Virus record (IMG/VR): IMGVR_UViG_3300042484_002226
Location: 1 to 57,742 of that record
Reading direction: 5' to 3' (one strand)
DNA: 57,742 bases
DNA from: a virus
Taxonomy: Duplodnaviria; Caudoviricetes
The notes under the pieces were generated by a model. It saw only the letters and a program-made list of their open reading frames with translations, did no database searches and was not told the origin of the DNA. Made by a program: the position numbers and the translations under genes. Below are positions 24,456 to 52,632 of this stretch, piece by piece (position 1 is the first letter of the stretch; every line of letters starts with the position of its first letter).

Positions 24456-25706
24456 ATGATTGTTAAACACATTGTCTGTATTGATCGTAAAAGAAATCCG
24501 TTTTTACCATTGACGCAAGCGCACCATCTACTAGATCAATACACAGCCGCAGACAATGTTGTTATACTTTTAGATCATCTTTGGGAAGATCGGTTAGTGC
24601 CTGCTTTAATAAAAACTTTTGTTGCTGTCATTAAGGAAAGATGTCCTTGGAAAATATTGCTGATAGCAAATTCATGGGAAAGACCTAATGCAGGATTTAT
24701 ACAAGAAACAGGAGTCGACGATGTGTTGTATGTTGACTTTTTTTTGTATCGCGTGTTTAAAGAAATTGTAGTGAATAAAAAAAGTGCATTTAGGCAAATA
24801 GAAAATTCACTGACATTCGATAAACAAAAATTTTTATTTTTAACTGGGAAAGCAGCTAAAGTTAATCGCATAGGACTACTGAAAAAATTTGTAGATGCTG
24901 GATTAATGACTCATGCAGAGTGGTCTTTTTATTATTTTGAATTAACTAAAAAATACAATCAGTCGGTTAAAAATCAACTACCAGAATTAACTGATGAAGA
25001 ATTTGAAGAATTTGTAAAAACATGGTTGCGTAACCCAGACAACATTGACATTGCTCTATCTTCCGATGGATTAAGTTACGAATACAATGGCATTCCATAT
25101 GATATTGGTCTGTATATGCAGACTGACTTTTCAGTAATAAGTGAAACCAGTTTTTGCCAAACTAACAACCCGTGGATAACTGAAAAAATATGGATCCCAA
25201 TACTTAACAGGCATCCATTTATCATAGCAGGGGACACAAACATCTTACAAAAATTAGAACAAATGGGATTTGAAACTTTTAGAAATTTCTTAAAAATACC
25301 CAACTATGATCAAATTGTAGATACTGCTGATCGATTGGCAGCAGTTGTAGAGAATACTCGATATTTTTTAGACAACATAAAGAAAAATTCTGCATGGATA
25401 AATCAAGATGTAAACTGTAATTTCTCAAGACTCTCTACACTATATTTTTTGAATAACGAACGCATTTTAAATTTTATGTATACTCATAAGTTGACAGAAT
25501 TTACAATTGATGATATAGTTCCCACAGTTGGGCGGAAGAACAATATAAACAAACAAGAAAAAGATCGTGCCTTTGTTATATTTTACAATAATGTCAAAGA
25601 TTCTACCTGGCCGGACGCAAAATCAATTGATGAGTTTTATAAACTGCCAAAACATATACAACACGAATGCATTAACACTTTTGGTCTTATGCTACCTACA
25701 AAATGA
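24456..25706 (+). CDS. Glycosyltransferase-like protein (ET...TEK...PF motif) carrying the shared C-terminal module
   Basis: VISETSF...ITEKIWIPILNRHPFIIAG..LEQMGFETF resembles GT10-like C-terminal domains; C-terminal FYNNVKDSTWPD. Confidence 0.5.
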   Translation: MIVKHIVCIDRKRNPFLPLTQAHHLLDQYTAADNVVILLDHLWEDRLVPALIKTFVAVIKERCPWKILLIANSWERPNAGFIQETGVDDVLYVDFFLYRVFKEIVVNKKSAFRQIENSLTFDKQKFLFLTGKAAKVNRIGLLKKFVDAGLMTHAEWSFYYFELTKKYNQSVKNQLPELTDEEFEEFVKTWLRNPDNIDIALSSDGLSYEYNGIPYDIGLYMQTDFSVISETSFCQTNNPWITEKIWIPILNRHPFIIAGDTNILQKLEQMGFETFRNFLKIPNYDQIVDTADRLAAVVENTRYFLDNIKKNSAWINQDVNCNFSRLSTLYFLNNERILNFMYTHKLTEFTIDDIVPTVGRKNNINKQEKDRAFVIFYNNVKDSTWPDAKSIDEFYKLPKHIQHECINTFGLMLPTK

Positions 25707-27160
25707 AAAACGCCAAGATAATAATTCAAGACGAAGTAAATATCAAGATTGATGGACTAGACTTGGATGCCCGCAAAGCTCTAGTTAAAAAATTCAAATA
25801 TGATGTTCCGTATGCACGATATCTACCAGCGGTGAGACTGGGTCGATGGGACGGCAAAGTTAGTTATTTCCAACTCGGCGGTAGCACTTATACTAATTTA
25901 CTACCCGAGATTCTCCCCATACTCGACGACTACAATTATGAAATTGAACTTGACGATCGTCGCGAGTACACTAGAACTTTTGAGTTTGCACTAGCCACAG
26001 AAGATACCTTTAAGGATCGGTGTTGGCCCAAAGGGCACCCACAGGCTGGAGTGCCGATTCAGCTGCGAGATTATCAAGTTGAGATCATCAACAACTTTCT
26101 TAGCAACCCACAGTGCATCCAAGAGGTTGCTACCGGCGCCGGTAAGACTATCATGACTGCTGCGCTAAGTTGCCTGGTTGGACCCTACGGTCGCAGCATT
26201 GTTATTGTGCCCAACAAGAGCTTGGTGACACAGACCGAGAAGGATTATATCAATATTGGATTAGATGTTGGTGTATACTTTGGGGATCGAAAGGAGTTTG
26301 GTCGTCAGCACACTATCTGCACTTGGCAAAGCCTTAATGTTCTATTGAAAAACACCCGATCGGGCACCGCCGACTGTACCATACAAGACTTTATTGAAGG
26401 CGTGGTGTGTGTCATGGTAGACGAAGTGCATATGGCCAAAGCCGATGCACTCAAGACTTTGCTCACAGGGGTAATGAGTCAAATCCCGATTCGGTGGGGA
26501 CTTACAGGCACTGTTCCTAAGGAAGCATTTGAATTTCAGGCCTTGCATGTAAGCCTAGGACCTGTAGTGAGCCGTCTTGCAGCTAGCGAGTTACAGGAGC
26601 GTGGTGTACTAGCACAATGTCATGTAAACGTGGTACAGTTAGTAGATCATGTAGAGTTTAAAGAATATCAAGCCGAGCTTAAATACTTACTAGAGGAACC
26701 AGGTAGACTTGATACAATTGCTGCCTTAGTTGCTCGGGTAAATGAGACTGGCAACACCTTGGTACTTGTAGACCGGGTGGCTGCCGGGAAAGCACTAGTT
26801 GAAAGGTTAGGAGAGAGTGCAGTATTTGTATCAGGTGCAACCAAGGCAAAAGATCGTCAGGATGAATACGACGAAGTAGCCGACGCAACCGGTAAGATCA
26901 TTGTAGCCACATACGGAGTTGCTGCTGTGGGTATTAATATTCCGCGTATTTTCAATCTAGTTATGTTAGAACCTGGCAAAAGTTTTGTTCGAGTTATACA
27001 GAGCATAGGCCGTGGTATACGTAAGGCAGAGGATAAGGATCATGTTCAAATCTGGGACATAACATCCACTTGCAAATTTGCCAAACGACATTTGACCAAA
27101 CGCAAAGTATTTTATAAAGAAGCCAATTATCCGTATACTCAGGAAAAACTAGAATGGTGA
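25703..27160 (+). CDS. uvsW: UvsW-like SF2 helicase
   Basis: LRDYQ, ATGAGKT, DEVH, GLTGT, GINIP, QSIGRGIR. Confidence 0.9.
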   Translation: MKNAKIIIQDEVNIKIDGLDLDARKALVKKFKYDVPYARYLPAVRLGRWDGKVSYFQLGGSTYTNLLPEILPILDDYNYEIELDDRREYTRTFEFALATEDTFKDRCWPKGHPQAGVPIQLRDYQVEIINNFLSNPQCIQEVATGAGKTIMTAALSCLVGPYGRSIVIVPNKSLVTQTEKDYINIGLDVGVYFGDRKEFGRQHTICTWQSLNVLLKNTRSGTADCTIQDFIEGVVCVMVDEVHMAKADALKTLLTGVMSQIPIRWGLTGTVPKEAFEFQALHVSLGPVVSRLAASELQERGVLAQCHVNVVQLVDHVEFKEYQAELKYLLEEPGRLDTIAALVARVNETGNTLVLVDRVAAGKALVERLGESAVFVSGATKAKDRQDEYDEVADATGKIIVATYGVAAVGINIPRIFNLVMLEPGKSFVRVIQSIGRGIRKAEDKDHVQIWDITSTCKFAKRHLTKRKVFYKEANYPYTQEKLEW

Positions 27161-27996
27161 TGTTAACCTCTGAACAATTTGCCACAGACAGAATAATTAT
27201 TGTTGCATATCCCAACGGCGCAGGTGGAAAATTCTTGATAAACAGCCTGGCATTGAGTAATCAGGCAGTGCTTCAACACTGTTCCCTTACAGCACTTAAC
27301 TCGTCACAAAAGATAGAGTTATTGTGTCACAGATACAATAATCGGAAAGGGGAAAGATGGGGCGACATTGGCTTGGGCTGTTTCCAATTATTTGGGGTCA
27401 ATCAGATCCCCCATTCACAAACAGATCTAGAATATCGAGACGTAATTGCTAGATTAATCAATCAACAAAAATATTTCTTTCTTGTGGTACATAATCCCGA
27501 CCATCTAGCCCATGTGGTAAGAATATGGTCGAATGCCAAGGTAATACATTTTACAAACTATCAAGATTTTATGTTAACACACCGTTGGTTACCTGGTCAT
27601 CATCAGTTAAGTAATCGATTACGGGCTTTTAAAACCTGGTGGAAAAGTCGCAGGCAACCCGACTGGCCGGACCGGCCACCGTCTACTTTCATAGAATATC
27701 AACGGCCAGAGTATCAACGGATTGCCGAACATATTAAATCGATTGAACCGCTAATGATCCGTAATTTGCCAGAATATCCAAATGTAGATTTTCAATCAAT
27801 GTTGGGACCAGAAAATTGGCACCACCAGTGGGATGCATCGTGGTACCTAGACTGGGAGCAATACCGATCACATATACAAATGTTGTATGCCCAACTTGGA
27901 TTTGATGATTTTGATGCTGATAAGATACAGAGGTTATACAATTGTTGGATCTCGGCAATGCAACGGCATTTACACTATCTGATAGATCACTGTTGA
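27154..27996 (+). CDS. Hypothetical protein with a Gly-rich N-terminal loop (sulfotransferase-like?)
   Basis: IIVAYPNGAGGKFLINSL. Confidence 0.45.
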   Translation: MVMLTSEQFATDRIIIVAYPNGAGGKFLINSLALSNQAVLQHCSLTALNSSQKIELLCHRYNNRKGERWGDIGLGCFQLFGVNQIPHSQTDLEYRDVIARLINQQKYFFLVVHNPDHLAHVVRIWSNAKVIHFTNYQDFMLTHRWLPGHHQLSNRLRAFKTWWKSRRQPDWPDRPPSTFIEYQRPEYQRIAEHIKSIEPLMIRNLPEYPNVDFQSMLGPENWHHQWDASWYLDWEQYRSHIQMLYAQLGFDDFDADKIQRLYNCWISAMQRHLHYLIDHC

Positions 27997-28529: not shown

Positions 28530-28736
28530 ATGGAACAATACGAAAAAAGTGGACCCAGAGTTGATGCACTGCCCCAGGCACCTGAACAAAAGCAAGTTGG
28601 CTCGAAGATTGATTTGTTAGATCAACGGCTGCAAGATCAATCCCGCACTATTGCTATCATGCAACGCGAAATGCGACGCATGCAAAATCAACTTGACGAA
28701 GCAACCGGCGCAATCAACAGTATACGTCGTGGATAA
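28530..28736 (+). CDS. Small coiled-coil hypothetical protein
   Basis: Heptad pattern; start 1 nt after the upstream stop. Confidence 0.55.
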   Translation: MEQYEKSGPRVDALPQAPEQKQVGSKIDLLDQRLQDQSRTIAIMQREMRRMQNQLDEATGAINSIRRG

Positions 28737-29175
28737 ACTTAGCATTCAAAATGAGATGAATTGTTTCGATCTCAAGGATCGAGAGTTTTATAACAGTCTC
28801 ACAGATGAGGAACGTAAAAAGTTCTCCAACTATCTTATGATACGGTGGGGATCGGCGGTGCATGGTAGTCGAGAACTGCAAGAGTTTTATCTAATCTCAT
28901 GCAACGAGCGCCTCAACAAACACTTCTTTGCTATAAACCGTCACCCTAAGTTACAGTGGTTGTGCGCTACATCTGTAAGTCCGGGCATGGGTACACACCG
29001 GCATCAGTGGATCTCGCCCAAGAAGAAGGAAGCAGGATCCAACGAGATCAAGAAAACTCTCATGGAGCTTATGCCTAATGCCAAGCTGTCGGACATTGAC
29101 ACACTGTCTAAACTCATCAACAAGAAAGATTTGAAAGAGTATTTGCGTGAACACGGCTACACTGACAAAGACTGA
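28729..29175 (+). CDS. gp62-like clamp-loader small subunit (putative)
   Basis: FSNYLMIRW.S...NE.LN...HPKLQW...QWISPKK resembles the T4 gp62 pattern. Confidence 0.5.
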   Translation: MDKLSIQNEMNCFDLKDREFYNSLTDEERKKFSNYLMIRWGSAVHGSRELQEFYLISCNERLNKHFFAINRHPKLQWLCATSVSPGMGTHRHQWISPKKKEAGSNEIKKTLMELMPNAKLSDIDTLSKLINKKDLKEYLREHGYTDKD

Positions 29176-29845
29176 ATACACTTGCAACCATTGTGCCCGT
29201 GCATTCAAGCGGGAACCAAGCTTGGCCACACATGTGTGTGAATCCAAACGTCGTTATCTTGAGCGGGACGAAGTAGGTGTTACGATTGCTCTCCAAGCAT
29301 ACTTGAGATTTTACGAGATTACCCAAGGCACAGCAAAGAACAAAAGGTTCAAGGATTTTTCTGCCAGCCCCTACTACAGGGCATTTGTTAAATTTGGACG
29401 TTACTGTCAAGAGATCCGAGCAGTCAATGTGCCCCAGTTTGTGAACTGGGTGGTTAAGAAAAATAAAAAGATTGATCACTGGTGTCACGAATCTGTATAC
29501 TATGAATACTTGATGGAGTACTTGCGCACTGAATCTGTAGGTGATGCCTTGACCCGATCAATTGAATCTAGTATCGACTGGCAGGAAAAAACCGGCAATG
29601 CAGCACACGACTATCTTCGATATGGCAACGCCAACACACTGTGCTATGCGATTTCGACCGGGCGGGTATCAGCCTGGACTGTATACAACTGTGATTCTGG
29701 ACATGAGTTGTTAGCAAGACTTAACTCCGAGCAGTTGACTATGATTTGGCCCATGGTTGAGACTGGTGTTTGGAGTCAACGACTTCGTGACCACCCCGAA
29801 GATCGTGACTATGCACGGACAATTTTAAAACAAGCAGGCTGGTAG
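29147..29845 (+). CDS. Hypothetical protein with an N-terminal C2HC zinc finger
   Basis: YTCNHCARAFKREPSLATHVC. Confidence 0.65.
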   Translation: MNTATLTKTEYTCNHCARAFKREPSLATHVCESKRRYLERDEVGVTIALQAYLRFYEITQGTAKNKRFKDFSASPYYRAFVKFGRYCQEIRAVNVPQFVNWVVKKNKKIDHWCHESVYYEYLMEYLRTESVGDALTRSIESSIDWQEKTGNAAHDYLRYGNANTLCYAISTGRVSAWTVYNCDSGHELLARLNSEQLTMIWPMVETGVWSQRLRDHPEDRDYARTILKQAGW

Positions 29846-29846
29846 C

Positions 29847-30827
29847 ATGGTATGTATAGACTTTCAAGGCGGCAGCCACGGTAACTATTTAGAGTTTATT
29901 TGTAACAAATTTCTAGCATGTGTACCTACCGCAGGGCCGACCCCATTTAATCACCTTGGGGCGTCACACCAACAAAATTATCTCGGCTCCCGGATATTTC
30001 AAGGCGGTCACTATTCATTTTGGCCAGAAATTACCCACGTACTTGAGAAGAATCAAGTAGTATCTATACAGATTGATATAGATGATCTTCTCCCGTTAAC
30101 ATCAGTAAGTTTGCTGCGCGCCGGAAATTATAACTATGCCAATAACGAACTAGAGTTGGATACCTATAATAAATTGAATAATCGAGATTATAAGTGGGTA
30201 CTTGACAATATTGTTACTAACTTTTTTAGCAATCAAATTCAAGGTAGTTACAATGCAGTAAAGGACGACACATGGCCTTGCGTAAATAACCTACATGAGT
30301 TTAATCAATTGCCAATTTGGATCCAAGATGAATGTTATAACATTCATGGATTAGTCTTGTTGCAGCTTGATAAAGAGCACCCAGATTGTCCAAGACATGT
30401 ACTCCGAGAATTTTTTAAACTAGGGTTTAAATATCCACTCCAATCGGGTTTTATTCAGCAACAGAAAAAAATGGTGTACTCCGAGTCGATCTCAGTATAC
30501 TCGATGCCATTTTCTGCATTTTATAATATTGAAACATTTGTAACACATTTGCACGCCATTGCTAGTATGGCTGGTTACACAGTGCATAATCTACCCGACT
30601 TGTTAGTAGTGCACCAACAGTTCCTAGATTTACAAATTTACAAAACATCTAAACTCCGGTGTGACCAACTGATTAGTGATATTCAGTTAGGGCAATCTTT
30701 TGCATTGCCTAAATTAACACTATTAGAAGAAAGTTATGTTAGTGCACAGCTTGAACTATGCTATAATAAAGAATTAACCCACTGGTTTAATAATAGCCAG
30801 GACATATTGGATTATTTGACCACATGA
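29847..30827 (+). CDS. Hypothetical protein (Gly-loop family) with the shared module internally
   Basis: IDFQGGSHGNYLEF; internal YNAVKDDTWP...LP.WIQDEC. Confidence 0.5.
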   Translation: MVCIDFQGGSHGNYLEFICNKFLACVPTAGPTPFNHLGASHQQNYLGSRIFQGGHYSFWPEITHVLEKNQVVSIQIDIDDLLPLTSVSLLRAGNYNYANNELELDTYNKLNNRDYKWVLDNIVTNFFSNQIQGSYNAVKDDTWPCVNNLHEFNQLPIWIQDECYNIHGLVLLQLDKEHPDCPRHVLREFFKLGFKYPLQSGFIQQQKKMVYSESISVYSMPFSAFYNIETFVTHLHAIASMAGYTVHNLPDLLVVHQQFLDLQIYKTSKLRCDQLISDIQLGQSFALPKLTLLEESYVSAQLELCYNKELTHWFNNSQDILDYLTT

Positions 30828-31387
30828 GCGCAGACATTGATATTGACTTTGCAGATCGATCACTGGTATTAAAGTTGATTGACCATATCCCGGCTATGCA
30901 ACGGGTAGACAGCACAGTCCGTAAGCATAACTCGGGAGTATACGTCACCGATATTCCCGTAGATCCTGTGCATGGATGTGCTGCGATTGATTACGCTATA
31001 GCCGATCAGCGCGGATATTTCAAGATTGACTTCTTGAACATGAGTGTGTATCAACTGATTCAAAGTCCCGACCACTATGCAACTATGTTAGCAGCGGCTC
31101 CGCCTTGGGATCGAATTTGGAATGACATAGCTTGGGCTAAACAGTTGGTGCACGTGGGAAATTATGCAGAGTTGTTGGCATCAATGCGACCAGATTCTAT
31201 ACCCAAGATGGCTGCGTTCATTTCGATTATCCGTCCAGGCAAAGCACACCTGCAAAACTGTTCCTGGGTAGAAGTGTTCGAATCAGTCTGGAATGGGGAT
31301 GATAGTCGGGGTTACACCTTTAAAAAGGCACATGCACTTTCGTATGCAATGCTAGTGACACTACACATGAACTTGCTTACTACTTAA
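30824..31387 (+). CDS. dnaE: Minimal DNA polymerase III alpha (DnaE/family C)-like catalytic core
   Basis: DIDIDF, KHNSGVYV, KIDFL, IRPG and GYTFKKAHA.SY appear in DnaE order within 187 aa. Confidence 0.8.
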   Translation: MSADIDIDFADRSLVLKLIDHIPAMQRVDSTVRKHNSGVYVTDIPVDPVHGCAAIDYAIADQRGYFKIDFLNMSVYQLIQSPDHYATMLAAAPPWDRIWNDIAWAKQLVHVGNYAELLASMRPDSIPKMAAFISIIRPGKAHLQNCSWVEVFESVWNGDDSRGYTFKKAHALSYAMLVTLHMNLLTT

Positions 31388-32153
31388 AGTAGTCAGATTT
31401 GTTCCAGGTCTCTCCCCAGACAACAAGAGAATCGGGACTTGTTGCTAACGGTAACTGACAGTCCCAAAAATTATGATATCTTTCAGAGACTTCCGGGAGA
31501 CCCAGTATGTTACAAAGATATCTACTACCTCCGGGTTGAAATAATAGATTATAGTCTGCTTTCTTATGCGGAATTGGTAGAGCAAGAGGCGGCATACCGC
31601 CGTAGAGTCGATTTATTCCTCTGAGTAAATATTCTTTAACTAGTGAAATGCGATCGGAGTTTGTCACTCCACTGTTATCACTATCTGGTGTTGTGCTATA
31701 TTTAATAATACGTCCATCGACTTGCCATGTTCTCCTCCAAAGATTAAATGCCTCCCGAGTTCTGAGTTGCGATAGATATGTTTTAACTGTGCACTCCCAG
31801 TGAATATGACTAAAGCACACAGCGGATGTATCTATTATTAAAAGTTCAGCTTGCTCTGAATTAACTGCGCCCAGGATATTTTCTGGCATGTTTACATGTA
31901 ACGCACCAGCATACCAAAAATCTGCTGCGGGATTCAGAGTGAAATGCTCTTCAAATAAATCTGAAAATCGATCAAATTTTTTGTGATCGAGCATTTTACT
32001 GTGCCGCATGAATCCATAACTTTGCCCTGTTAATGGGTCGATATGCCATTCATTATCGAGAAATTGCGGCAAGGTTCCTAACCATCCAGCCACAAAGTCT
32101 ATTCTGGCACCACCTTCGCCGGCTACTAAAATAACTTTTTTAATTTCTACCAT
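31380..32153 (-). CDS. Hypothetical protein (Gly-loop family), tandem paralog A
   Basis: VILVAGEGGARIDFVAGWL; colinear with the next ORF. Confidence 0.6.
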   Translation of the reverse strand: MVEIKKVILVAGEGGARIDFVAGWLGTLPQFLDNEWHIDPLTGQSYGFMRHSKMLDHKKFDRFSDLFEEHFTLNPAADFWYAGALHVNMPENILGAVNSEQAELLIIDTSAVCFSHIHWECTVKTYLSQLRTREAFNLWRRTWQVDGRIIKYSTTPDSDNSGVTNSDRISLVKEYLLRGINRLYGGMPPLALPIPHKKADYNLLFQPGGSRYLCNILGLPEVSERYHNFWDCQLPLATSPDSLVVWGETWNKSDYFK

Positions 32154-32905
32154 GAGTTGATCTGTTCATTGAAGTAATCCGCTTTGTTCCAAGTTCGCCC
32201 CCATACGACGAGCGAAGTGGGGCTTACAGTTAGTGGTAGATAACAGTCCCATGCTGCATGATATCTGCTATCGATCGCTGGCAGATTTAGTTGTTTACAC
32301 AGATACTTGCTACCACCTGGTTGAAACAATAGATTATAGGCTACCGTTTTATGTGGCAGTTGAATAGCTCCCGGCCGTACAAGCGGCTGATTCTTTAGAC
32401 TCTGCAACTGCTGCTCGACTAATGTAATACGATCCTGATTTGTTATTTCAGATTTCTTAATGTTCCTGTCAATCTGCTGCCAAGTCATGTTTGTTTCGAT
32501 TGCGCCTCGAGTTCTGAATTGTGGGAAATATGTTTTAACTACAAACTCCCATGCCAAGTGATCGGTACTAACACTTGATGTATCGATAGACACTAGTTCT
32601 GCTAGGCCAGATTCAATAGCGCCTTGGATATTTTCTGGTTTATGACCGTGCAAGGTACCGGCATAATATAAATCTGCTGCAGGATTTATAATGAAAAACT
32701 CTTTAAAGAAATCGGAGAAACTGTCAATTTTTACGTAATCGAGCATTTTAGTGAACATCATGGATCCGTGACTTAGCCCAGTTTGTGGATCTATGCGCCA
32801 AGTAGTGTCAAGGAACAACGGCAGAGTACTTAGCCATCCGGCAACAAAGTCCATTCTAGCTCCGCCTGCACCGGCTACTAAAATAACTTTTTTAATTTCT
32901 AACAT
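32147..32905 (-). CDS. Hypothetical protein (Gly-loop family), tandem paralog B
   Basis: VILVAGAGGARMDFVAGWL; identical 31-bp 5' segment shared with paralog A. Confidence 0.6.
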   Translation of the reverse strand: MLEIKKVILVAGAGGARMDFVAGWLSTLPLFLDTTWRIDPQTGLSHGSMMFTKMLDYVKIDSFSDFFKEFFIINPAADLYYAGTLHGHKPENIQGAIESGLAELVSIDTSSVSTDHLAWEFVVKTYFPQFRTRGAIETNMTWQQIDRNIKKSEITNQDRITLVEQQLQSLKNQPLVRPGAIQLPHKTVAYNLLFQPGGSKYLCKQLNLPAIDSRYHAAWDCYLPLTVSPTSLVVWGRTWNKADYFNEQINSW

Positions 32906-33282
32906 TAGTTGATTCGTCTGACCAGGGTTATACTCTTGCGTTTGGACTTTTTGCGTCCGAGGTCGTTTAAGCTGCATACAGGGCCGTGGATGATCTCAAG
33001 ATCTCGGTTACTGAATGTGCGTAGATAAGGACGGAACAGGTCCCACTCGTGCTTGAGGAAGATATTGATGGGGATACTGCGGTTGCTTTCCCACCACCAA
33101 GTGTTGGCCAACTCAATGAATACTCGCTTAAGAGCAGCATCTAGTATGTTACCAAAGTCGTAAATGGTGGTGATGGCGTCGTCACGATTTTGAATGATAC
33201 CGACATACTCCACGCCGGCGTATGAACACAGGGTGATAAAAGGGTACTTAGAAGTTAGAGTTTGGAATATGTTTTCACCCAT
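32905..33282 (-). CDS. Hypothetical protein
   Basis: YPF...EYVGIIQN...WWWESNRSIPINIFL, basic tail; TATAAATA on the - strand at 33322-33329. Confidence 0.65.
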   Translation of the reverse strand: MGENIFQTLTSKYPFITLCSYAGVEYVGIIQNRDDAITTIYDFGNILDAALKRVFIELANTWWWESNRSIPINIFLKHEWDLFRPYLRTFSNRDLEIIHGPVCSLNDLGRKKSKRKSITLVRRIN

Positions 33283-33303
33283 AAATATCAATGGAGACAG
33301 CGA

Positions 33304-34112: not shown

Positions 34113-34802
34113 ATGAGTAAGATTAAAAAACTGGTTGTATTTGGGGATAGTTGGACCTTTGGTGACGAATTAATGGCACCGGGGTTGGCGAGTCGCCTAG
34201 ATTCGTATAATGCGATGCCCGAGAATGATCAATATCGACTACAGCATTGTTGGGCACGTCATGTAGCTGACCACTTTGGGTTAGAGCTAGTTAACTTGGC
34301 CTTTAATGGCATGAGCTTGCAGAGCATGATTTGGACGGCGTTATGGTGGATTAACAATCACGATGTGTCTGACAGTGTAGCAATAGCGGCACTTACGCTA
34401 GATCATAGGACCAGTTGGTACCAAGACAATGTACCTGGTCGAACCCCCGAATGGAACATGCACACGCACTCGGCGTGGGAACAAACATTTGGGCCCTGGA
34501 GGGAAGTAAAACAAAATTATTTCCAACATAGCCAAGGAGATATGCTGGATCAATATCAACGACAGCAAGCGGTGTTATGTTTTGATAGCATTGCTGATCG
34601 CCACCAGATCCCAGTAGTCCAATTTGATATACACCCCGATCAAACTCCTTACTACGGTAAACAACATGCTTATGTTGGCGAAGCTGCTTGGAACTGGATC
34701 GAAGATAATCGGGCCAAGGACAAACACCCTAACGAACAAGGACATGTTTTGATTGCCAACAGGTTGATTTCTTGGATAGAATCTGTTAAACTTATGAAGT
34801 GA
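34113..34802 (+). CDS. SGNH-like hydrolase
   Basis: VFGDSWTFG, NLAFNG.S, HPNEQGH..IA. Confidence 0.6.
   Translation: MSKIKKLVVFGDSWTFGDELMAPGLASRLDSYNAMPENDQYRLQHCWARHVADHFGLELVNLAFNGMSLQSMIWTALWWINNHDVSDSVAIAALTLDHRTSWYQDNVPGRTPEWNMHTHSAWEQTFGPWREVKQNYFQHSQGDMLDQYQRQQAVLCFDSIADRHQIPVVQFDIHPDQTPYYGKQHAYVGEAAWNWIEDNRAKDKHPNEQGHVLIANRLISWIESVKLMK
34764..34792 (+). promoter_or_regulatory. Sigma70-like promoter for primase
   Basis: TTGATT-17 nt-(TGt)TAAACT; GTG 6 nt downstream. Confidence 0.55.
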
Positions 34803-35782
34803 TAGATCTACTTGCTTATTTGCCAGCGCGCCGAAAACAAACCTCTTCGGGCTGGCTCAGTTTCAACTCGCCCTGTTGTGTACACAACGGGCAGTCGGCC
34901 GATCGTAGGCAGCGAGGCGGGATCAAAGCAACCCCAGATGGCTGGAGCTTTCATTGCTTTAATTGCCGATTTACTGCTAGTTGGCAATTGGGCCGAAATC
35001 TAAGCATCAAAGCTCGTAAGTTTTTGGGATGGGTAGGGGTGTCGGAACATGATATTGAAATGCTTAATATCGAAAGCTTACGACATCGAAGTATACATGG
35101 AATCATCCAGGATCGACAGCGAACGGCCGAACTGCTGTTAGGTGTCGAGTTTAAAGAACGCGACTTACCGCCAGCTGCTGAACTAATTGCACCTGAGCAT
35201 AGTGAGTTTTGGCAGTATGCTCGTAAGCGATGCGTACCTGAAGACTTTCCCTTGATGACACAGATACGCAATGATGGCGTCCACTGGACTAGGCCACACG
35301 TGATTGTGCCATTTACCTATGACAACAAGATTGTAGGTTCTGCCTGCAGGTTCATAGATAACAAGCAACCAAAGTTCATAAACGATACCCAACCAGGTTA
35401 CGTATTTGGCACAGACTTACAGCACGATGACTGGCAACATGTACTGGTCATGGAAGGCGTGTTTGATGCAATCTGTATTGGGGGGGTCGCGGTATTGCAC
35501 AACGATATTAACGATGCACAGGCCAGGCTGATACGAAACCTAGGGAAAGAAATCACAGTAGTCCCTGATCATGACAGTGCAGGTATGGCCCTAGTTGATC
35601 GTGCAGTGGAACTAGGGTGGGCTGTGAGCATGCCCGATTGGCCCCCGGAGATCAAAGACGTCAACGATGCAGTGGTCACATTTGGCCGTTTGGCTACACT
35701 GCTAACCATAATGCAAGCTAGGGAAACTAGTCGAATCAAAATAGAACTAAGGAAGAAACAACTTGTTAAACACCTACGTTAA
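34799..35782 (+). CDS. DNA primase (gp61/DnaG-like)
   Basis: Zn ribbon PCC..H...FHCFNC; TOPRIM MEGVFDA, PDHD..G, KDVND. Confidence 0.88.
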   Translation: MIDLLAYLPARRKQTSSGWLSFNSPCCVHNGQSADRRQRGGIKATPDGWSFHCFNCRFTASWQLGRNLSIKARKFLGWVGVSEHDIEMLNIESLRHRSIHGIIQDRQRTAELLLGVEFKERDLPPAAELIAPEHSEFWQYARKRCVPEDFPLMTQIRNDGVHWTRPHVIVPFTYDNKIVGSACRFIDNKQPKFINDTQPGYVFGTDLQHDDWQHVLVMEGVFDAICIGGVAVLHNDINDAQARLIRNLGKEITVVPDHDSAGMALVDRAVELGWAVSMPDWPPEIKDVNDAVVTFGRLATLLTIMQARETSRIKIELRKKQLVKHLR

Positions 35783-36566
35783 AAAGGTCATATTATTTCC
35801 GGCAGGTGCGAGCGGGCATTTCTTAGCTAGCTTTTTGTGCGCAAACCCGAATGTAATCCCCCCAGCATTTAGACTTGATATGAATCAGGACTTTGGGGGT
35901 GTATCTAAATTTTGTAAGACCTATGACGATATCGTAAGTGAGCTAGACAACAGCACAACTCGTATCATAGTAAGTCACTTTCAAGAAGTAACTAAGCTTC
36001 GATCTCATAAAAACGCACCGCAGCTATATAAAATATATCCCAAGACAAACGTGTTTGGGTGGATTAAGAATGTATTTGCTAAAAAGCAGCTATTGGAAAC
36101 TGTGGATTATTCCGGGGCAGATTTTGTAATGCAAATAGATATACATTTCATGCACATACATGATTTTTATACACAACTTAAATTAGATCAAGATTTGCCC
36201 GATGATGTGGTTATAGACTTTGGTCAATTATACGATATAGAGTACTTAACAGAGTTGTACACTGTAGTTAATCGGCATCCTCCGGCCCAGGAGACATTAG
36301 ATTTTGCAAGACAGTACATTGACAAGCAATTCCCTCCAATGGATGACTGCGTGTCCTTGGATCTTCAGGAGATTATAAGTCATGTTAACCCGCAAGATAA
36401 CTTTGATCTTGCAACTTTGATTTTTATATATGAGAAAAATCATAACACTGTGGACAGAAATAGATTATGGAGCATTGACGATCTACCGACTACTATAGAA
36501 GGTAGCATTGAGTTTTTGTTAAAAAACGAAAAAAATTACACAATCTTCAGGAACACTGTACGATGA
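35763..36566 (+). CDS. Hypothetical protein (Gly-loop family)
   Basis: VILFPAGASGHFLASFL. Confidence 0.5.
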   Translation: MLNTYVKKVILFPAGASGHFLASFLCANPNVIPPAFRLDMNQDFGGVSKFCKTYDDIVSELDNSTTRIIVSHFQEVTKLRSHKNAPQLYKIYPKTNVFGWIKNVFAKKQLLETVDYSGADFVMQIDIHFMHIHDFYTQLKLDQDLPDDVVIDFGQLYDIEYLTELYTVVNRHPPAQETLDFARQYIDKQFPPMDDCVSLDLQEIISHVNPQDNFDLATLIFIYEKNHNTVDRNRLWSIDDLPTTIEGSIEFLLKNEKNYTIFRNTVR

Positions 36567-37639: not shown

Positions 37640-39067
37640 ATGATTAAAGAATACGGAATCGACGTTCAGAAGTTATTTTTGGAGATGATGTTAGAGGATG
37701 CATCTAGCTATGTTCGCGTCCAAAATATCTACAATCCCGAGAACTTTGATAAGAGTCTACGCCCTGCGGCTGTGTTCATCAAGGAGCACAGCGATAAACA
37801 CAAGACCATGCCGGATCGACTGCAGATCTCTGCCACAACGGGTATCAAGCTACAAGCTGTGCCGGACTTGAATGAGGGACACTTTGAATGGTTCATGGAA
37901 GAGTTCGAGTCCTTTACACGTCGACAAGAACTTGAACGGGCAATTTTAAAAGCAGCAGACTTGTTGGAAAAGGGCGATTACGATCCGGTTGAGAAACTGA
38001 TCAAGGACGCAGTGCAAATCAGCTTGACCAAAGACTTAGGCACAGATTACTTTGCAGACCCGGCTGCACGGATCAACAAGTACTTTAACAGCGGAGGCCA
38101 GGTCAGTACAGGTTGGCCACAGCTGGATAGATTGCTGTACGGTGGGTTTAGCCGCGGAGAATTGAACATCTTTGCAGGTGGATCAGGGTCGGGCAAGAGC
38201 TTGGTCATGATGAACATTGCACTAAGCTGGGTGCAGGCCGGCCTTAGTGGAGTGTATGTCACACTGGAACTAAGTGAAGAGTTGACCAGCTTGCGTACAG
38301 ATGCCATGCTGACCAGCATGAGTACCAAGGACATTCGCAAGGATATTGGTACAACTGAGCTCAGAGTCAAGATGATAGGCAAAAAATCTGGCAACTATCA
38401 AGTCAAAGGACTTCCGGCACAAAGCAACATCAATGACATTCGTAGTTTCTTGAAAGAGTATCAAATCCAAACTAACAAGCGTGTGGACTTTGTCATGATT
38501 GATTACCTGGACTTGCTGATGCCAGTCAGTGCCAAAGTTAGTCCCAATGACTTGTTTGTCAAGGACAAGTACGTGAGTGAAGAACTGCGTAACTTGGCCA
38601 AGGAACTAGGTGTACTGATGGTAACTGCAAGTCAGTTGAATCGTAGTGCTGTGGAAGAGAATGAGTTTGATCACAGTCATATTAGTGGGGGCATTAGTAA
38701 GATCAACACAGCAGACAACGTGTTTGGTATCTTCACCAGCCGCAGCATGCGCGAGCGCGGCAAGTATCAGATCCAGTGCATGAAGTCGCGCAGTTCAACC
38801 GGAGTAGGACAAAAGATCGATCTTGAGTACAACATTGAAACCATGCGTATCACTGATGAGGGCGGGGATAGTGCCAGTGACCGCCCAACCAGTTCAATTA
38901 TGGATGCGATCAAGACCCGTAGTCAAGCACAGGCGGCCGACAAGCTTGAGAGTAGCGATACTGTAAAGTTTGAACGTGCACCCAGGACCGACGACGTACC
39001 AAAGATCTCGGCTGAAATTCAATCAACCAAGCTCAAGCAATTACTAGGGCAGATTAAGAAATCTTAA
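37640..39067 (+). CDS. gp41: DnaB-like replicative helicase (T4 gp41-like)
   Basis: STGW..LD, GGSGSGKS, TLE, IDYLDL, TASQLNR, MKSR. Confidence 0.92.
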   Translation: MIKEYGIDVQKLFLEMMLEDASSYVRVQNIYNPENFDKSLRPAAVFIKEHSDKHKTMPDRLQISATTGIKLQAVPDLNEGHFEWFMEEFESFTRRQELERAILKAADLLEKGDYDPVEKLIKDAVQISLTKDLGTDYFADPAARINKYFNSGGQVSTGWPQLDRLLYGGFSRGELNIFAGGSGSGKSLVMMNIALSWVQAGLSGVYVTLELSEELTSLRTDAMLTSMSTKDIRKDIGTTELRVKMIGKKSGNYQVKGLPAQSNINDIRSFLKEYQIQTNKRVDFVMIDYLDLLMPVSAKVSPNDLFVKDKYVSEELRNLAKELGVLMVTASQLNRSAVEENEFDHSHISGGISKINTADNVFGIFTSRSMRERGKYQIQCMKSRSSTGVGQKIDLEYNIETMRITDEGGDSASDRPTSSIMDAIKTRSQAQAADKLESSDTVKFERAPRTDDVPKISAEIQSTKLKQLLGQIKKS

Positions 39068-39120: not shown

Positions 39121-39378
39121 ATGCAGAAAAAGACACGCAGCATATTAGAAGAATTAGACACGCTGTACCAAGAAAAGCATTCTGATCAAGATCGCCGGTA
39201 CATCATTGAATCTCGCGCAGCTAATGTGATTGCCAGTGCTATCCGTCTGGTGGAACAAATTGAGTCCAGCTACACACCGGAACAGGCAGATAACCTGGTG
39301 CGCAAGTTGTTTAATGCAATACGCACCAAGGATCAAAGTAAATTTACACGAACAATGAGGAGAACCGATGCTAACTGA
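39121..39378 (+). CDS. Late hypothetical protein
   Basis: TAAATAAATA upstream; ILEE/IIES motifs. Confidence 0.6.
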   Translation: MQKKTRSILEELDTLYQEKHSDQDRRYIIESRAANVIASAIRLVEQIESSYTPEQADNLVRKLFNAIRTKDQSKFTRTMRRTDAN

Positions 39379-41302
39379 AGGCGGGAACGTATTCAAAGGT
39401 GCCGATGGTACGATTTTAACACAGCGTATCAACCAGGCCGATGTCATGCCTACAGTGAAGTGGCTGGAACAGATCACCGGTGTTGATTTTACACAAGACA
39501 AAGCTGCAGACGGCAAGCCAGCCAAGTGGTTGGGCAGTACCGGGCGCAAGGCCACCTCGGGTGACCTGGACCTGTTGGTGCACGATGCTGACATTAGCAA
39601 AGAGCAGCTGGCCGCCAAGCTACAAGCATGGTGTGTGGCACAGCGTGTAGATCCTAAACAGTACATCAAGAAGACTGGCATCTCGGTGCATTTTTTCACA
39701 GCAATCGACGGCGACCCCAGTCATGGATTTGTACAAACAGACTTTATGTTTACTGCAAACCCATCATGGACTGTGTTCTTCTTGAGCAGTGATCCTACGT
39801 CGGCATACAAGGGCATGAGTCGTAACATCTTGTTGAGTTCTGTGGCCAAGGCCATGGGATACAGAATCAACTCCAACATTGGTCTAGTAGATCGCACCAC
39901 TAACCAATTGGTTCCCGGGGGAGACAATCCTGAAACTGTTGCCAAAATCCTGCTGACCCCGCAAGCCACTACAGAAGACATGTACAGTGTAGAGCGTATT
40001 GTTGCTGCACTCAAGAATGATCCCAAGAAGGATGCCAAGTTATCGGACTTCCGTGAGTTCATGCTCAAGTCTGGCACTCCGCTAGATGAGAATGTCAACT
40101 ACACAGATGTGGACTGGATGGCACGACTACGTGACAGGATCATGGTTCAGGGCATGCAGCCCTTGATTGAATCCTCGCTCAAAGAAGCCGAGGAAGCAGG
40201 CATTGGCGGCAAGGCCAAGGGTATTGAGCACTTGGAAGATTATGTGTTTCGTTTCGGGACACCGGGTATTCAACGCGCCCTGGACATTGTTAACGCAGCG
40301 GCTGCATCGCCTGGCAAAACTACCACAGTCAAGTGGGACGGCAAACCGGCTGTTATATTTGGTCGCAAGCCTGCCACAGGCGAGTTTGTACTCACAGACG
40401 GATCCGGGTTCGAAGCAAAGGGATACGATGGTTTGGCCACAAGTCCTAAAATGATGGCACAGATCCAGAACATGCGCAAGGGAGACCGCGAAGTGCTGAT
40501 CAGCATCTATGCCGGGCTGTTTCCTGCGCTCGAAGCTGCCCTTCCGGACAACTTCCGTGGCTATGTCAAGGGAGACTTGCTGTACTATCCACAAAACCCC
40601 TGGAAAGAAGAAGCCGGCAACTATGTATTCACACCCAACACTGTAACATACCGCATTCCGGCAAATAGTGCGCTGGGACAAAAGATCAAGCAAAGTCAAA
40701 CAGGCGTTGCTATGCACACACGGTACGATGATGTGGGTGCACCCCGCCAGCCACTAGGGGATATTAAATTCAAACCTGTGCAGGGATTGCTGCTAGTTGA
40801 CCCCAGCACAAGCGTCCCCCAACAAATTACCCCAGATGCACAATCAGCAGCCGCATTACAGCAAATTATCAAAACACAAGGGGCAAACATCACAGCCTTG
40901 TTCAATCCCGATGATTTAAGAGCAAGCAAGATCACTGACCTTGCTCGGTTATGCGTGGACTTTGTTAACACCAAGGTGGGACAAACTTTGCCTGATGCTC
41001 GGACACTAGTAGCCGACTTTGGCAAGTGGCTGCAAAGTAAAGTGTCTCCGCAGAAGTTCAGTAACATTGTGACTTACCTTAAGAGCAAGCCGGGTAACTT
41101 GTCGGGCATGGCCGCCGCTTTCCAAGCATTCTTGCTGCTGCACAACATCAAAGAGAATATCCGTGCACAGTTAGATGCACAACACCCCGGACAAGAGGGA
41201 TGGGTCATGGCTACACCTTCCGGCTATGCCAAGGCAGTGGGTCGCTTTACCCCAGATGCGTTTGCTGCGAAGAATCGTGAACAGAATAATCCAACTGCAT
41301 GA
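39368..41302 (+). CDS. Pol-beta-type nucleotidyltransferase fused to a DUF6267-like ligase-fold domain
   Basis: N-terminal LGS...SGDLDLLV...QTDFMF; C-terminal HLED, TVKWDG.PA, GDLLY, EGWV, K. Confidence 0.65.
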   Translation: MLTEGGNVFKGADGTILTQRINQADVMPTVKWLEQITGVDFTQDKAADGKPAKWLGSTGRKATSGDLDLLVHDADISKEQLAAKLQAWCVAQRVDPKQYIKKTGISVHFFTAIDGDPSHGFVQTDFMFTANPSWTVFFLSSDPTSAYKGMSRNILLSSVAKAMGYRINSNIGLVDRTTNQLVPGGDNPETVAKILLTPQATTEDMYSVERIVAALKNDPKKDAKLSDFREFMLKSGTPLDENVNYTDVDWMARLRDRIMVQGMQPLIESSLKEAEEAGIGGKAKGIEHLEDYVFRFGTPGIQRALDIVNAAAASPGKTTTVKWDGKPAVIFGRKPATGEFVLTDGSGFEAKGYDGLATSPKMMAQIQNMRKGDREVLISIYAGLFPALEAALPDNFRGYVKGDLLYYPQNPWKEEAGNYVFTPNTVTYRIPANSALGQKIKQSQTGVAMHTRYDDVGAPRQPLGDIKFKPVQGLLLVDPSTSVPQQITPDAQSAAALQQIIKTQGANITALFNPDDLRASKITDLARLCVDFVNTKVGQTLPDARTLVADFGKWLQSKVSPQKFSNIVTYLKSKPGNLSGMAAAFQAFLLLHNIKENIRAQLDAQHPGQEGWVMATPSGYAKAVGRFTPDAFAAKNREQNNPTA

Positions 41303-52205: not shown

Positions 52206-52630
52206 TGTGGCCAAACACAGTCGACCAACGCCTACAATCTTGGTACGAGTTAAGGCAACAGGCCTCTACGGTCGATCTTGAATCTGCACTAGATCTTGTT
52301 AACGTCTGGTGGTTCAACGCGCCCTGGCGGCCCTACCATCTTCATTGGGACGATCGGCAAAATTGGCCAGATCCCTGGCAATTATTAAGCGATAACATGT
52401 TCTGTCCACTTGCTCGCGGGCTTGGTATACTGTATACTATAACAATGCTAAACCGCCCAGATATTCAGGATGCCGAATTGACCGACTCCGACAATGACAA
52501 TTTAGTCCTGATCAGCAACGGGAAATATATACTGAATTGGGACCCAAAACAGATCGTAAATACCAGCCTACCTGTGCTGGTAGGACAAAACAATTTTACT
52601 CAAGCAGTAGCAAAAATCAAAGTCGGATAA
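52205..52630 (+). CDS. Hypothetical protein (weak transglutaminase/BTLCP-like pattern)
   Basis: W.DPWQLL...FC..ARGLGILYT. Confidence 0.5.
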   Translation: MWPNTVDQRLQSWYELRQQASTVDLESALDLVNVWWFNAPWRPYHLHWDDRQNWPDPWQLLSDNMFCPLARGLGILYTITMLNRPDIQDAELTDSDNDNLVLISNGKYILNWDPKQIVNTSLPVLVGQNNFTQAVAKIKVG

Positions 52631-52632
52631 CA

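What the first reader, a model, noticed from the sequence alone, without database searches (positions are those of the whole stretch)
30824..31387. Miniaturised family-C (DnaE) polymerase inside a T4-type replisome
Seen: a clean 187-aa ORF holds, in DnaE order, DIDIDF (two catalytic Asp), KHNSGVYV, KIDFL (third Asp), IRPG and GYTFKKAHA.SY. Known: DnaE is >1000 aa with PHP, fingers, HhH and OB domains, and T4-like phages normally use a family-B gp43. Inference: spacers were deleted while every motif was kept, which fits selection rather than decay. It could be a stripped palm acting as one subunit of a split replicase (with the upstream zinc-finger and gp62-like proteins) or a repurposed nucleotidyltransferase. 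No other replicative polymerase is in this window.
Basis: partly seen in the sequence, partly recalled or inferred. Interest (0 to 1): 0.85.

Follow-up and report, generated by a model that had tools for sequence, protein, structure and literature searches.

The report
Back half of split mini-DnaE polymerase
This 187-residue giant-phage gene is real and strongly conserved, but it is only the metal- and template-binding half of a two-piece, stripped-down relative of the bacterial replicative polymerase DnaE, an oddity already described from sequence in 2021 whose activity is still untested.

Summary
ORF 30824-31387 (+) is intact and carries the five motifs in DnaE order.

- **Homology:** a profile of 77 homologs hits only Pol III alpha chains in the PDB (9 of 9, best E 3.5e-6). 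The AlphaFold model (pLDDT 96.4) aligns over 174-186 of 187 residues to C-family polymerases at Z 6.0-9.7. The next fold scores Z 3.5.
- **Selection:** D4, D6, K67, D69, R137 and P138 are invariant. dN/dS is 0.035 against the nearest relatives.
- **Not a whole polymerase:** the protein starts exactly at the DxD strand. The NTP-binding GRGSS half is a separate ~174-aa gene (PF07733), found in 4 of 4 related genomes 43-224 kb away and absent from this window. A natural 375-aa fusion joins both halves. A co-fold scored 0.91 against 0.01 for the best control.
- **Not the only polymerase:** the window is about 17% of a genome, and 4 of 4 relatives carry a family B polymerase.
- **Prior work:** Iyer et al. 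2021 (PMC7824862) describe exactly this split minimal Pol III alpha in group 2.2 jumbo phages. This scan met it before on other DNA.

Verdict: already known, function untested.

The parts
30824..31387 (+). Gene for the C-terminal (metal- and template-binding) unit of the split minimal Pol III alpha, 187 aa
   Evidence: ORF. PHROG 11778 at E 3.8e-51. Profile against the PDB hits only Pol III alpha. Model pLDDT 96.4. VIA Z 6.0-9.7 to C-family polymerases.
30833..30850 (+). DIDIDF (residues 4-9), the first two catalytic Asp on strand 5-9. D4 and D6 are invariant; D8 is kept in at least 90% of sequences.
   Evidence: Equivalence to E. coli D401/D403 is inferred from the VIA range 399-777 and from recall of the E. 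coli motif.
30923..30946 (+). KHNSGVYV (residues 34-41). H35 and G38 are kept in at least 90% of sequences. The thumb of DnaE would lie before this point and is missing.
31022..31036 (+). KIDFL (residues 67-71). K67 and D69 are invariant and align to E. coli K553 and D555 (third catalytic Asp).
31229..31240 (+). IRPG (residues 136-139). R137 and P138 are invariant and align to the E. coli FRPG ending at residue 641.
31310..31345 (+). GYTFKKAHALSY (residues 163-174). K167 and H170 are kept in at least 90% of sequences and align to E. coli FNKSH (K758, H760).
29147..29845 (+). Context: conserved upstream neighbour, 232 aa, with an N-terminal C2H2-like zinc finger and a helical body (PHROG 11058). 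Function unknown.
   Evidence: PHROG at E 1.5e-51. Weak zf-C2H2 hit. Upstream on the same strand in 73 of 80 loci and abutting in 31. Found in 93 phage records. No fold match: best Z 4.9, Foldseek E >= 0.74.
29847..30827 (+). Context: 326-aa ORF inserted between the zinc-finger gene and the polymerase unit. It is lineage-specific and is not part of the polymerase.
   Evidence: No PHROG. Homolog in 14 of 80 loci only. The nearest relatives L009 and L010 have a 3-nt gap here instead.
32905..33291 (-). Context: conserved convergent downstream neighbour, 128 aa, of unknown function.
   Evidence: Downstream on the opposite strand in 79 of 80 loci, and also in Phosso and Paride.
25703..27160 (+). 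Context: UvsW-type DNA helicase opening the conserved replication block.
   Evidence: PHROG 16 at E 1.2e-76. Synteny with Phosso and Paride.
34799..35782 (+). Context: DNA primase.
   Evidence: PHROG 47 at E 5.1e-31.
37640..39067 (+). Context: DnaB-like replicative helicase.
   Evidence: PHROG 19 at E 2.9e-69.

Best explanation
The ORF encodes the C-terminal unit of the two-piece 'minimal DNA polymerase III alpha' of group 2.2 (RaK2 / PA5oct / Atu_ph07-like) jumbo phages.

**Shown**
- It is a homolog of the DnaE/PolC palm from the DxD strand onward, plus a shortened finger region.
- It lacks the PHP domain, the thumb, most of the fingers, the clamp-binding region and the OB domain.
- Its acidic triad (D4, D6, D69) and the dNTP/template-contacting K67, R137, K167 and H170 are conserved under strong purifying selection.

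**Shown in relatives, inferred for this phage**
- The missing N-terminal palm part, carrying the triphosphate-binding GRGSS loop, is a separate ~174-aa protein encoded tens to hundreds of kb away.
- The two chains are predicted to complete one beta sheet and one active site.
- The phage also has a family B polymerase as its main replicase.

**Inferred mechanism**
The heterodimer performs two-metal nucleotidyl transfer on a primer-template. With no thumb, clamp-binding region or proofreading domain, it would be a distributive auxiliary polymerase rather than the replicase. Possible roles are gap filling, repair, or extension of primers in the primase-helicase module where the gene sits.
For: **Identity**
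- PHROG 11778 matches at E 3.8e-51.
- 96 phage records carry the protein, 94 of them full-length. All are jumbo phages, at 33-41% identity.
- The family profile hits only Pol III alpha in the PDB: 9 of 9 sequences, best E 3.5e-6. K67/D69 align to E. coli K553/D555, RPG to residues 639-641, and KxxH to K758/H760.
- The AlphaFold model has pLDDT 96.4 and pTM 0.88.
- In VIA-align the top 15 entries are all C-family polymerases, at Z 6.0-9.7 and rmsd 3.2-4.4 A with 174-186 of 187 residues aligned. The aligned ranges are E. coli 399-777 and PolC 970-1292. The next fold scores Z 3.5.

**Selection**
- In 77 sequences at 27-64% identity, D4, D6, K67, D69, R137 and P138 are invariant.
- All 80 IMG/VR homologs are intact.
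- Window against L009/L010: dN 0.026, dS 0.72, omega 0.035. Over 192 unsaturated pairs the median omega is 0.117 and the maximum 0.233.

**Split enzyme**
- PF07733 positions 21-97 match a small ORF in 4 of 4 related genomes (Phosso, Paride, G001, G002; E 7.9e-13 to 2.9e-8), 43-224 kb from the C-unit.
- The G001 N-unit ends ...GRGSS...DLDPTEFLR, and the window protein starts MSADIDIDF.
- G142, R143, G144, S145 and S146 are invariant in 36 N-units.
- The N-unit occurs in 93 phage records with nearly the same genus tallies as the C-unit's 96.
- P0177 (375 aa) is a natural N+C fusion. Its residues 78-180 match the N-unit (E 4e-20) and 190-373 match the window protein (E 9.9e-26). PF07733 runs unbroken across the joint, residues 97-207.
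- Co-fold of the G001 N-unit with the window C-unit: ipSAE 0.91 in all 3 runs, against 0.01 for the best of 3 controls. That mark was reached by 58 of 80 solved complexes and 2 of 110 mismatched pairs. Run agreement was at least 98% and partner pLDDT at least 91. N-unit residues 139-140 pair with C-unit residues 7-9.

**Second polymerase**
PF00136 matches in 4 of 4 related genomes, including G001 (345 kb, 99% complete).

**Literature**
Iyer et al. 2021 describe exactly this arrangement (passages seen).
Against: - The N-unit and the family B polymerase are not in this window. Their presence in this phage is inferred from relatives, because the record is about 17% complete.
- The co-fold used an N-unit from another phage, whose own C-unit is 73% identical to the window's.
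- The two chains are halves of a fold solved as one chain, so the co-fold pass may reflect likeness to DnaE structures rather than binding (caveat stated).
- Foldseek gave no match at E <= 0.001.
- The single sequence has no Pfam or NCBIfam hit.
- I could not read model coordinates, so the distances between the three Asp were not measured.
- I found no enzymatic data in any paper. Polymerase activity, template dependence and biological role are inference.
- 3036 of 3240 codon pairs were saturated and left out of the omega summary.
Confidence: 0.88

Rival explanations
1. A stand-alone miniaturised DnaE that works alone as the phage's replicative polymerase, replacing gp43.
For: - No family B, A or C polymerase was found elsewhere in the window.
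- The gene sits among helicase, primase and DnaB genes.
Against: - The ORF lacks the GRGSS NTP-binding part of the palm. That part is a separate gene in 4 of 4 relatives.
- 4 of 4 relatives have a family B polymerase.
- The window is only about 17% of the genome.
- There is no thumb, clamp-binding region or exonuclease.
Confidence: 0.03
2. The split enzyme's partners are the upstream neighbours: the zinc-finger protein 29147-29845 and the ORF 28651-29175. They would act either instead of the distant N-unit or as extra DNA-binding subunits.
For: - The zinc-finger gene lies upstream on the same strand in 73 of 80 loci. The 7 loci without it have at most 1382 bases of upstream sequence. In 31 loci it abuts or overlaps the C-unit start.
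- The block is kept in Phosso and Paride at 30-34% identity.
- The zinc-finger gene occurs in 93 phage records, against 96 for the C-unit.
Against: - The neighbours show no sequence or fold similarity to any DnaE domain. The profile search gave only weak C2H2 hits (E >= 0.019), Foldseek gave E >= 0.74, and the best VIA Z was 4.9.
- In 42 of 73 loci other genes or gaps intervene.
- In Xoo-sp13 the zinc-finger gene lies about 10 kb from the C-unit.
- The whole replication block is syntenic, so adjacency is not specific.
- The 'gp62-like' label got no support from PHROGs, Pfam or NCBIfam.
- Binding was not tested, because the one complex job went to the N-unit.
Confidence: 0.1
3. A repurposed Pol-beta-fold nucleotidyltransferase that no longer copies DNA. 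It might act as a terminal transferase, or as a nucleotide-signal or modification enzyme.
For: - Thumb, clamp and proofreading modules are all missing.
- No activity has been reported in the papers found.
- The window is rich in modification genes, according to scan notes I did not test.
Against: - The residues that contact the incoming dNTP and template in DnaE fingers (RPG, F-K-K/S-H...Y) are retained and near-invariant.
- The gene lies in the helicase-primase block in distant relatives.
Confidence: 0.12
4. A decaying fragment of a once full-length dnaE gene.
For: It is one sixth the length of bacterial DnaE.
Against: - At least 7986 near-length homologs exist, and 362 representatives at 50% clustering.
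- All 80 homologs examined are intact ORFs of 183-198 aa.
- Omega is 0.035-0.233.
- The catalytic residues are invariant.
- A search among longer proteins found 1 hit, a 335-aa chimera with Helicase_C and not a DnaE.
Confidence: 0.01

Closest known systems
Split minimal DNA polymerase III alpha of group 2.2 jumbo phages (Iyer, Anantharaman, Krishnan, Burroughs, Aravind 2021, Viruses 13:63, PMC7824862)
   Same: - The paper describes a phage-specific minimal Pol III alpha split into an N-terminal NTP-binding protein and a C-terminal Mg- and template-binding protein. The two are encoded by distant genes and accompanied by a family B polymerase (passages).
- The window protein is the C-terminal unit. 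It is 33-41% identical to those of RaK2, PA5oct, Atu_ph07, CBB, GAP32 and Phosso, with the same gene neighbourhood.
   Different: - Nothing in kind. This copy comes from an uncultured relative: 73-77% identical to long IMG/VR contigs and 96% to L009/L010.
- It has a lineage-specific 326-aa gene inserted just upstream.
- The 375-aa natural fusion (P0177) and the near-constant zinc-finger neighbour are not mentioned in the passages I read.
Bacterial replicative C-family polymerases DnaE / PolC (e.g. PDB 2hnh, 2hpi, 3e0d, 3f2b)
   Same: - Pol-beta-like palm with a DxD plus third-Asp triad.
- K553-, RPG- and FNKSH-type residues.
- The fold aligns over 174-186 of 187 residues.
   Different: - 187 aa against about 900-1200 aa in the solved chains.
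- No PHP domain, thumb, distal fingers, clamp-binding, HhH or OB parts.
- The N-terminal palm half is on a separate chain.
- No Pfam or NCBIfam DnaE model reaches threshold on this chain.
'Truncated DNA polymerase III alpha' CBB_328 of Pectobacterium phage CBB (Buttimer et al. 2017, PMC5259590)
   Same: It belongs to the same two-piece system in a cultured relative. The paper notes a 172-aa Pol III alpha-like protein, calls it truncated, and lists a gp43 homolog, CBB_263 (passages).
   Different: By its size (172 aa), and because the CBB record labels the N-unit match at 243187-243486 'DNA polymerase III alpha', CBB_328 is probably the N-unit. It would then be the partner of the CBB homolog of the window protein, which lies at 209085-209663 and is annotated as a membrane protein or DNA polymerase. 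I did not check the locus tag.

Membership tests
Split minimal Pol III alpha, C-terminal unit (Iyer et al. 2021; PHROG 11778) | Stand-alone protein of about 190 aa that begins at the DxD strand of the C-family palm | tested here: met
   The protein is 187 aa with DIDIDF at residues 4-9. PHROG 11778 covers residues 3-186 of the protein and positions 7-192 of 197 in the profile, at E 3.8e-51. The 80 homologs examined are 183-198 aa.
Split minimal Pol III alpha, C-terminal unit (Iyer et al. 2021; PHROG 11778) | Homology to the Mg- and template-binding part of Pol III alpha (palm C-half plus finger motifs) | tested here: met
   The profile hits only Pol III alpha in the PDB, best E 3.5e-6. VIA gives Z 6.0-9.7 over 174-186 of 187 residues.
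Split minimal Pol III alpha, C-terminal unit (Iyer et al. 2021; PHROG 11778) | Conserved acidic triad and dNTP-contact residues | tested here: met
   D4, D6, K67, D69, R137 and P138 are invariant. D8, H35, G38, K167 and H170 are kept in at least 90% of 77 sequences.
Split minimal Pol III alpha, C-terminal unit (Iyer et al. 2021; PHROG 11778) | A separate N-terminal NTP-binding unit encoded elsewhere in the same genome | tested here: inconclusive
   None was found in the window, but the record is about 17% complete. It is present in 4 of 4 related genomes and in 93 phage records.
Split minimal Pol III alpha, C-terminal unit (Iyer et al. 2021; PHROG 11778) | Host genome is a group 2.2 jumbo phage with a T4-like replication set and a family B polymerase | tested here: inconclusive
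   UvsW-type helicase, primase and DnaB are present, and the block is syntenic with Phosso and Paride. No family B polymerase is in the window, but it is present in 4 of 4 relatives.
Split minimal Pol III alpha, C-terminal unit (Iyer et al. 2021; PHROG 11778) | The two units assemble into one active enzyme | not testable with these tools
   Only a prediction is available: ipSAE 0.91 against 0.01 for the best control, plus the natural fusion P0177. I found no biochemical data.
Canonical bacterial DnaE / PolC (full-length C-family replicase) | N-terminal PHP domain | tested here: not met
   The protein starts at the DxD strand, and its model aligns from E. coli residue 399 onward. It has no Pfam hit.
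Canonical bacterial DnaE / PolC (full-length C-family replicase) | Complete palm on one chain, including the Gly-Ser NTP-binding loop | tested here: not met
   GRGSS lies in the separate N-unit of relatives. There is no PF07733 match in the window.
Canonical bacterial DnaE / PolC (full-length C-family replicase) | Thumb, full fingers, clamp-binding, HhH and OB domains | tested here: not met
   187 residues cover E. coli 399-777, with about half of that span missing and nothing beyond residue 777.
Canonical bacterial DnaE / PolC (full-length C-family replicase) | Catalytic Asp triad in the palm | tested here: met
   D4, D6 and D69 are invariant, and D69 aligns to E. coli D555.

The most novel reading that the evidence does not exclude
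The N+C pair, about 360 aa in total (375 aa in the natural fusion), is a catalytically active DNA polymerase and the smallest known of the C family. It would work with the phage primosome, for example extending primase products before hand-off to the family B replicase, much as Pol alpha does. The near-constant zinc-finger neighbour (29147-29845) might substitute for the missing thumb or DNA-binding parts.
Probability: 0.2. Interest if true: 0.65.

Novelty: already known. Interest (0 to 1): 0.28.

Why it matters
The finding itself needs no new category. It is a further copy of the split minimal Pol III alpha reported in 2021, and this scan has flagged the same family in other genomes.

It still marks an open biochemical question: can about 360 residues of C-family palm and reduced fingers, on two chains, copy DNA? 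If so, what does a second polymerase do beside a T4-type family B replicase? The family is very large, with at least 7986 near-length homologs in metagenomes, and it is under strong selection. An assay would therefore bear on many uncultured giant phages and on ideas about the minimal or ancestral form of the bacterial replicase.

Tried and rejected
**Single-sequence searches that gave nothing useful**
- Pfam at E <= 10 found no families.
- NCBIfam at E <= 0.1 found none.
- A PDB phmmer search gave two chance hits.

**Foldseek against the PDB**
No row reached E <= 0.001 for either model.

**Upstream zinc-finger protein as a hidden DnaE piece: rejected**
- The profile against the PDB gave only weak C2H2 hits.
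- Foldseek gave E >= 0.74.
- pdb_via_wide gave a best Z of 4.9, with no chain at Z >= 5 among 48161.
- The Atlas showed only viral hypothetical clusters.
- This does not show that the fold is new.

**Other searches in the window**
- DnaQ-type exonuclease (PF00929): none. The CBB paper mentions one in that phage.
- Family B polymerase and PF07733: none.

**Full-length homologs**
The 'longer' search found 1 protein, P0391 (335 aa). It is a C-unit piece joined to Helicase_C and is probably a chimera or a gene-call artefact.

**Constant adjacency of the zinc-finger gene and the C-unit**
This is not universal. In Xoo-sp13 they lie about 10 kb apart, and the N-unit is only about 14 kb from the C-unit.

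**Literature on activity**
- Searches (0 papers; 12; 1, Iyer et al.; 8; 24) turned up no assay.
- I read passages of PMC7824862, PMC5259590 and PMC11895373 only. The rest I saw as listings.
- The library holds open-access papers only.
- The supplements of Iyer et al., which may list accessions of both units, were closed.

**Rows left out**
- A1 used 76 of the 150 listed representatives, those covering nearly the full length. Fragments, P0177, P0254 and P0268 were left out.
- A2 used 35 of the 120 listed proteins.
- A3 used 41 of the 71 complete upstream ORFs.
- The omega summary used 192 of 3240 pairs, because the rest were saturated or too close.

**Not done**
- The Asp-Asp distances in the model were not measured, because coordinates are not exposed.
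- No reads were laid.
Full report
**What is there.** ORF 30824-31387 (+) is a clean 187-codon frame. Its ATG overlaps the TGA of the upstream ORF.

The single sequence has no Pfam or NCBIfam hit and only chance hits in the PDB. It does match PHROG 11778, annotated 'DNA polymerase', end to end at E 3.8e-51.

**How large the family is.**
- tblastn finds the protein in 96 phage records, 94 of them full-length. All are jumbo phages at 33-41% identity: Phosso, the PA5oct/Paride group, Atu_ph07, CBB, RaK2, GAP32 and 121Q-like coliphages.
- In metagenome proteins, at least 7986 near-length relatives were scored.
- At 50% clustering, 362 representatives reach E <= 0.001.

**Is it DnaE-like?** I aligned 76 of the 150 listed representatives with the window protein, giving alignment A1 at 27-64% identity. 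I chose representatives that cover nearly the full length.
- The A1 profile hits 9 PDB sequences at E <= 10, and all 9 are DNA polymerase III alpha (best E 3.5e-6).
- KIDFL aligns to E. coli K553/D555, IRPG to the FRPG ending at residue 641, and FKKAH to FNKSH (K758/H760).
- AlphaFold2 on A1 gave pLDDT 96.4 and pTM 0.88.
- Foldseek found nothing at E <= 0.001, but its top 18 rows are all C-family polymerases at E 1.2e-3 to 0.15.
- In VIA-align the top 15 entries are all C-family polymerases (PolC, T. aquaticus, M. tuberculosis and E. coli enzymes), at Z 6.0-9.7 and rmsd 3.2-4.4 A with 174-186 of 187 residues aligned.
- The aligned ranges are E. coli 399-777 and PolC 970-1292. The next fold scores Z 3.5.

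So the protein is the palm from the DxD strand onward plus a shortened finger region. The thumb, much of the fingers, and everything before residue 399 or after residue 777 of the E. coli enzyme are absent.

**Selection, not decay.**
- D4, D6, K67, D69, R137 and P138 are invariant in A1. D8, H35, G38, K167 and H170 are kept in at least 90% of sequences.
- All 80 IMG/VR homologs fetched are intact ATG-started ORFs of 183-198 aa.
- By Nei-Gojobori, the window against its nearest relatives L009/L010 gives dN 0.026, dS 0.72 and omega 0.035.
- Among 3240 pairs, 192 had dS between 0.05 and 1.5. Their median omega is 0.117 and the maximum 0.233. 3036 pairs were saturated and left out.

**It is half an enzyme.** The Gly-Ser triphosphate-binding part of the Pol-beta-like palm is not in this ORF.
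- Pfam PF07733 (DNA_pol3_alpha) finds nothing in the window at E <= 10.
- The same model matches positions 21-97 in a small ORF in 4 of 4 related genomes: Phosso, Paride, G001 (345 kb, 99% complete) and G002.
- By the coordinates, these ORFs lie about 224, 43, 95 and 84 kb from the C-unit.
- The G001 copy is 174 aa and ends ...GVGRGSSVASY...DLDPTEFLR. The window protein begins MSADIDIDF. By my recollection of the E. coli sequence, this is the loop between the FERFL helix and the PDFDVDF strand.
- The N-unit passes the Pfam cut-off for PF07733 (E 1.1e-7) and has at least 7995 near-length relatives.
- G142, R143, G144, S145 and S146 are invariant in 36 N-unit sequences.
- The N-unit is absent from the window by tblastn.
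- It occurs in 93 phage records with nearly the same genus tallies as the C-unit's 96 records.

**A natural fusion.** P0177 (375 aa), one of the 150 listed representatives, joins the two halves.
- Its residues 78-180 match the N-unit (33% identity, E 4e-20).
- Its residues 190-373 match the window protein (38% identity, E 9.9e-26).
- PF07733 runs unbroken over residues 97-207, across the joint.
- NCBIfam DnaE models cover residues 92-206.

**Predicted assembly.** I co-folded the G001 N-unit (alignment A2) with the window C-unit (A1).
- The score was 0.91 in all three runs, against 0.01 for the best of 3 controls.
- That mark was reached by 58 of 80 solved complexes and 2 of 110 mismatched pairs.
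- The runs agreed in at least 98% of contacts, and partner pLDDT was at least 91.
- N-unit residues 139-140 pair with C-unit residues 7-9, so one sheet continues across the two chains.

Three caveats apply. The two chains are halves of a fold solved as one chain, so the pass may reflect likeness to DnaE structures. The N-unit comes from another phage. My own alignments were used, so the calibration counts hold only roughly.

**Not the only polymerase.**
- The record is the whole of what is held for this virus: 57.7 kb, about 17% complete.
- It has no family B polymerase.
- PF00136 matches in 4 of 4 related genomes: Phosso in a 1013-aa frame, Paride in two frames of 825 and 379 aa, G001 in 886 aa and G002 in 944 aa.

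**Neighbourhood.** The block is conserved from close IMG/VR relatives to Phosso and Paride. Its gene order is:
1. UvsW-type helicase
2. PHROG 11279 protein
3. PHROG 11758 protein
4. zinc-finger protein (PHROG 11058, 29147-29845)
5. C-unit
6. convergent 128-aa gene
7. (further downstream) primase
8. DnaB

- The zinc-finger gene is upstream on the same strand in 73 of 80 loci. The other 7 loci have at most 1382 bases of upstream sequence. It abuts the C-unit in 31 loci and is separated from it in 42.
- Its model (pLDDT 90.3) has no convincing fold match and no DnaE likeness.
- In Xoo-sp13 it lies about 10 kb from the C-unit.
- I therefore treat it as a possible accessory that remains untested.
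- The 326-aa ORF between the zinc-finger gene and the C-unit in this window is a recent insertion. The 96%-identical relatives L009 and L010 have a 3-nt gap there.

**What is known.**
- Iyer et al. [quoted passage not shown] - They suggest it may help synthesise one strand or act in repair, and that it may resemble an ancestral form.
- Buttimer et al. 2017 (PMC5259590, passages) had already noted a 172-aa 'truncated' Pol III alpha in phage CBB. This is probably the N-unit.
- GenBank annotators label both halves of Phosso 'DnaE-like DNA polymerase III alpha'.
- I found no assay of activity (searches, open-access library only). Supplements were closed.
- This scan has noted the same family on other genomes. 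Two follow-ups reached the same reading.

**Mechanism.**
- Shown: homology, the missing domains, conservation of the catalytic and dNTP-contact residues, and the split in relatives.
- Inferred: the N-unit supplies the triphosphate-binding loop, and this chain supplies the three metal-binding Asp plus K67, R137, K167 and H170. Together they perform two-metal nucleotidyl transfer.
- Also inferred: with no thumb, clamp-binding region or proofreading domain, the enzyme should be distributive and auxiliary to the family B replicase.
- A role in primer extension is suggested only by its place in the helicase-primase block.

**Verdict.** This is a further copy of an already described system, so its interest is low to moderate. 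What remains open is the biochemistry.

Noticed in passing
window 27154-27996, 29847-30827, 31380-32153 (-), 32147-32977 (-), 35763-36566: ORFs with no PHROG are inserted into the otherwise conserved replication block. Homologs occur in few of the 80 related loci: 1, 14, 9, 9 and 3 respectively. L009 and L010, whose C-units are 96% identical to the window's, lack the 326-aa one. These look like recent lineage-specific insertions. A scan note calls them a Gly-loop paralog family.
   Followed up: partly
window 29147-29845: A 232-aa protein with an N-terminal C2H2-like zinc finger and a helical body. It is found only in viruses and has no fold match (best Z 4.9). It lies upstream of the polymerase half in 73 of 80 loci and occurs in 93 phage records.
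   Followed up: partly
protein P0177 (metagenome representative, 375 aa): A natural single-chain fusion of the N- and C-units of the minimal Pol III alpha.
   Followed up: partly
protein P0391 (335 aa): The only 'longer' relative found. It is a C-unit piece followed by a Helicase_C domain, and is probably an assembly or gene-call chimera.
   Followed up: partly
L003/L005/L007 (Pseudomonas phage Paride, record 88906-92683): The family B polymerase matches fall in two separate open frames of 825 and 379 aa. The gene looks interrupted or split in that phage.
   Followed up: no
L096 (Xanthomonas phage Xoo-sp13, record about 144113-144445): The N-unit match lies in a stretch with no annotated gene, just after the helicase. 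Here the N- and C-units are only about 14 kb apart.
   Followed up: partly
window 39368-41302: A 644-aa protein with a DUF6267 match (E 1.9e-30) and a PHROG 455 match. Another scan note reads it as a nucleotidyltransferase-ligase fusion. I did not examine it.
   Followed up: no
window 52537-54957: Class I ribonucleotide reductase large subunit (PHROG 84, E 6.7e-266).
   Followed up: no
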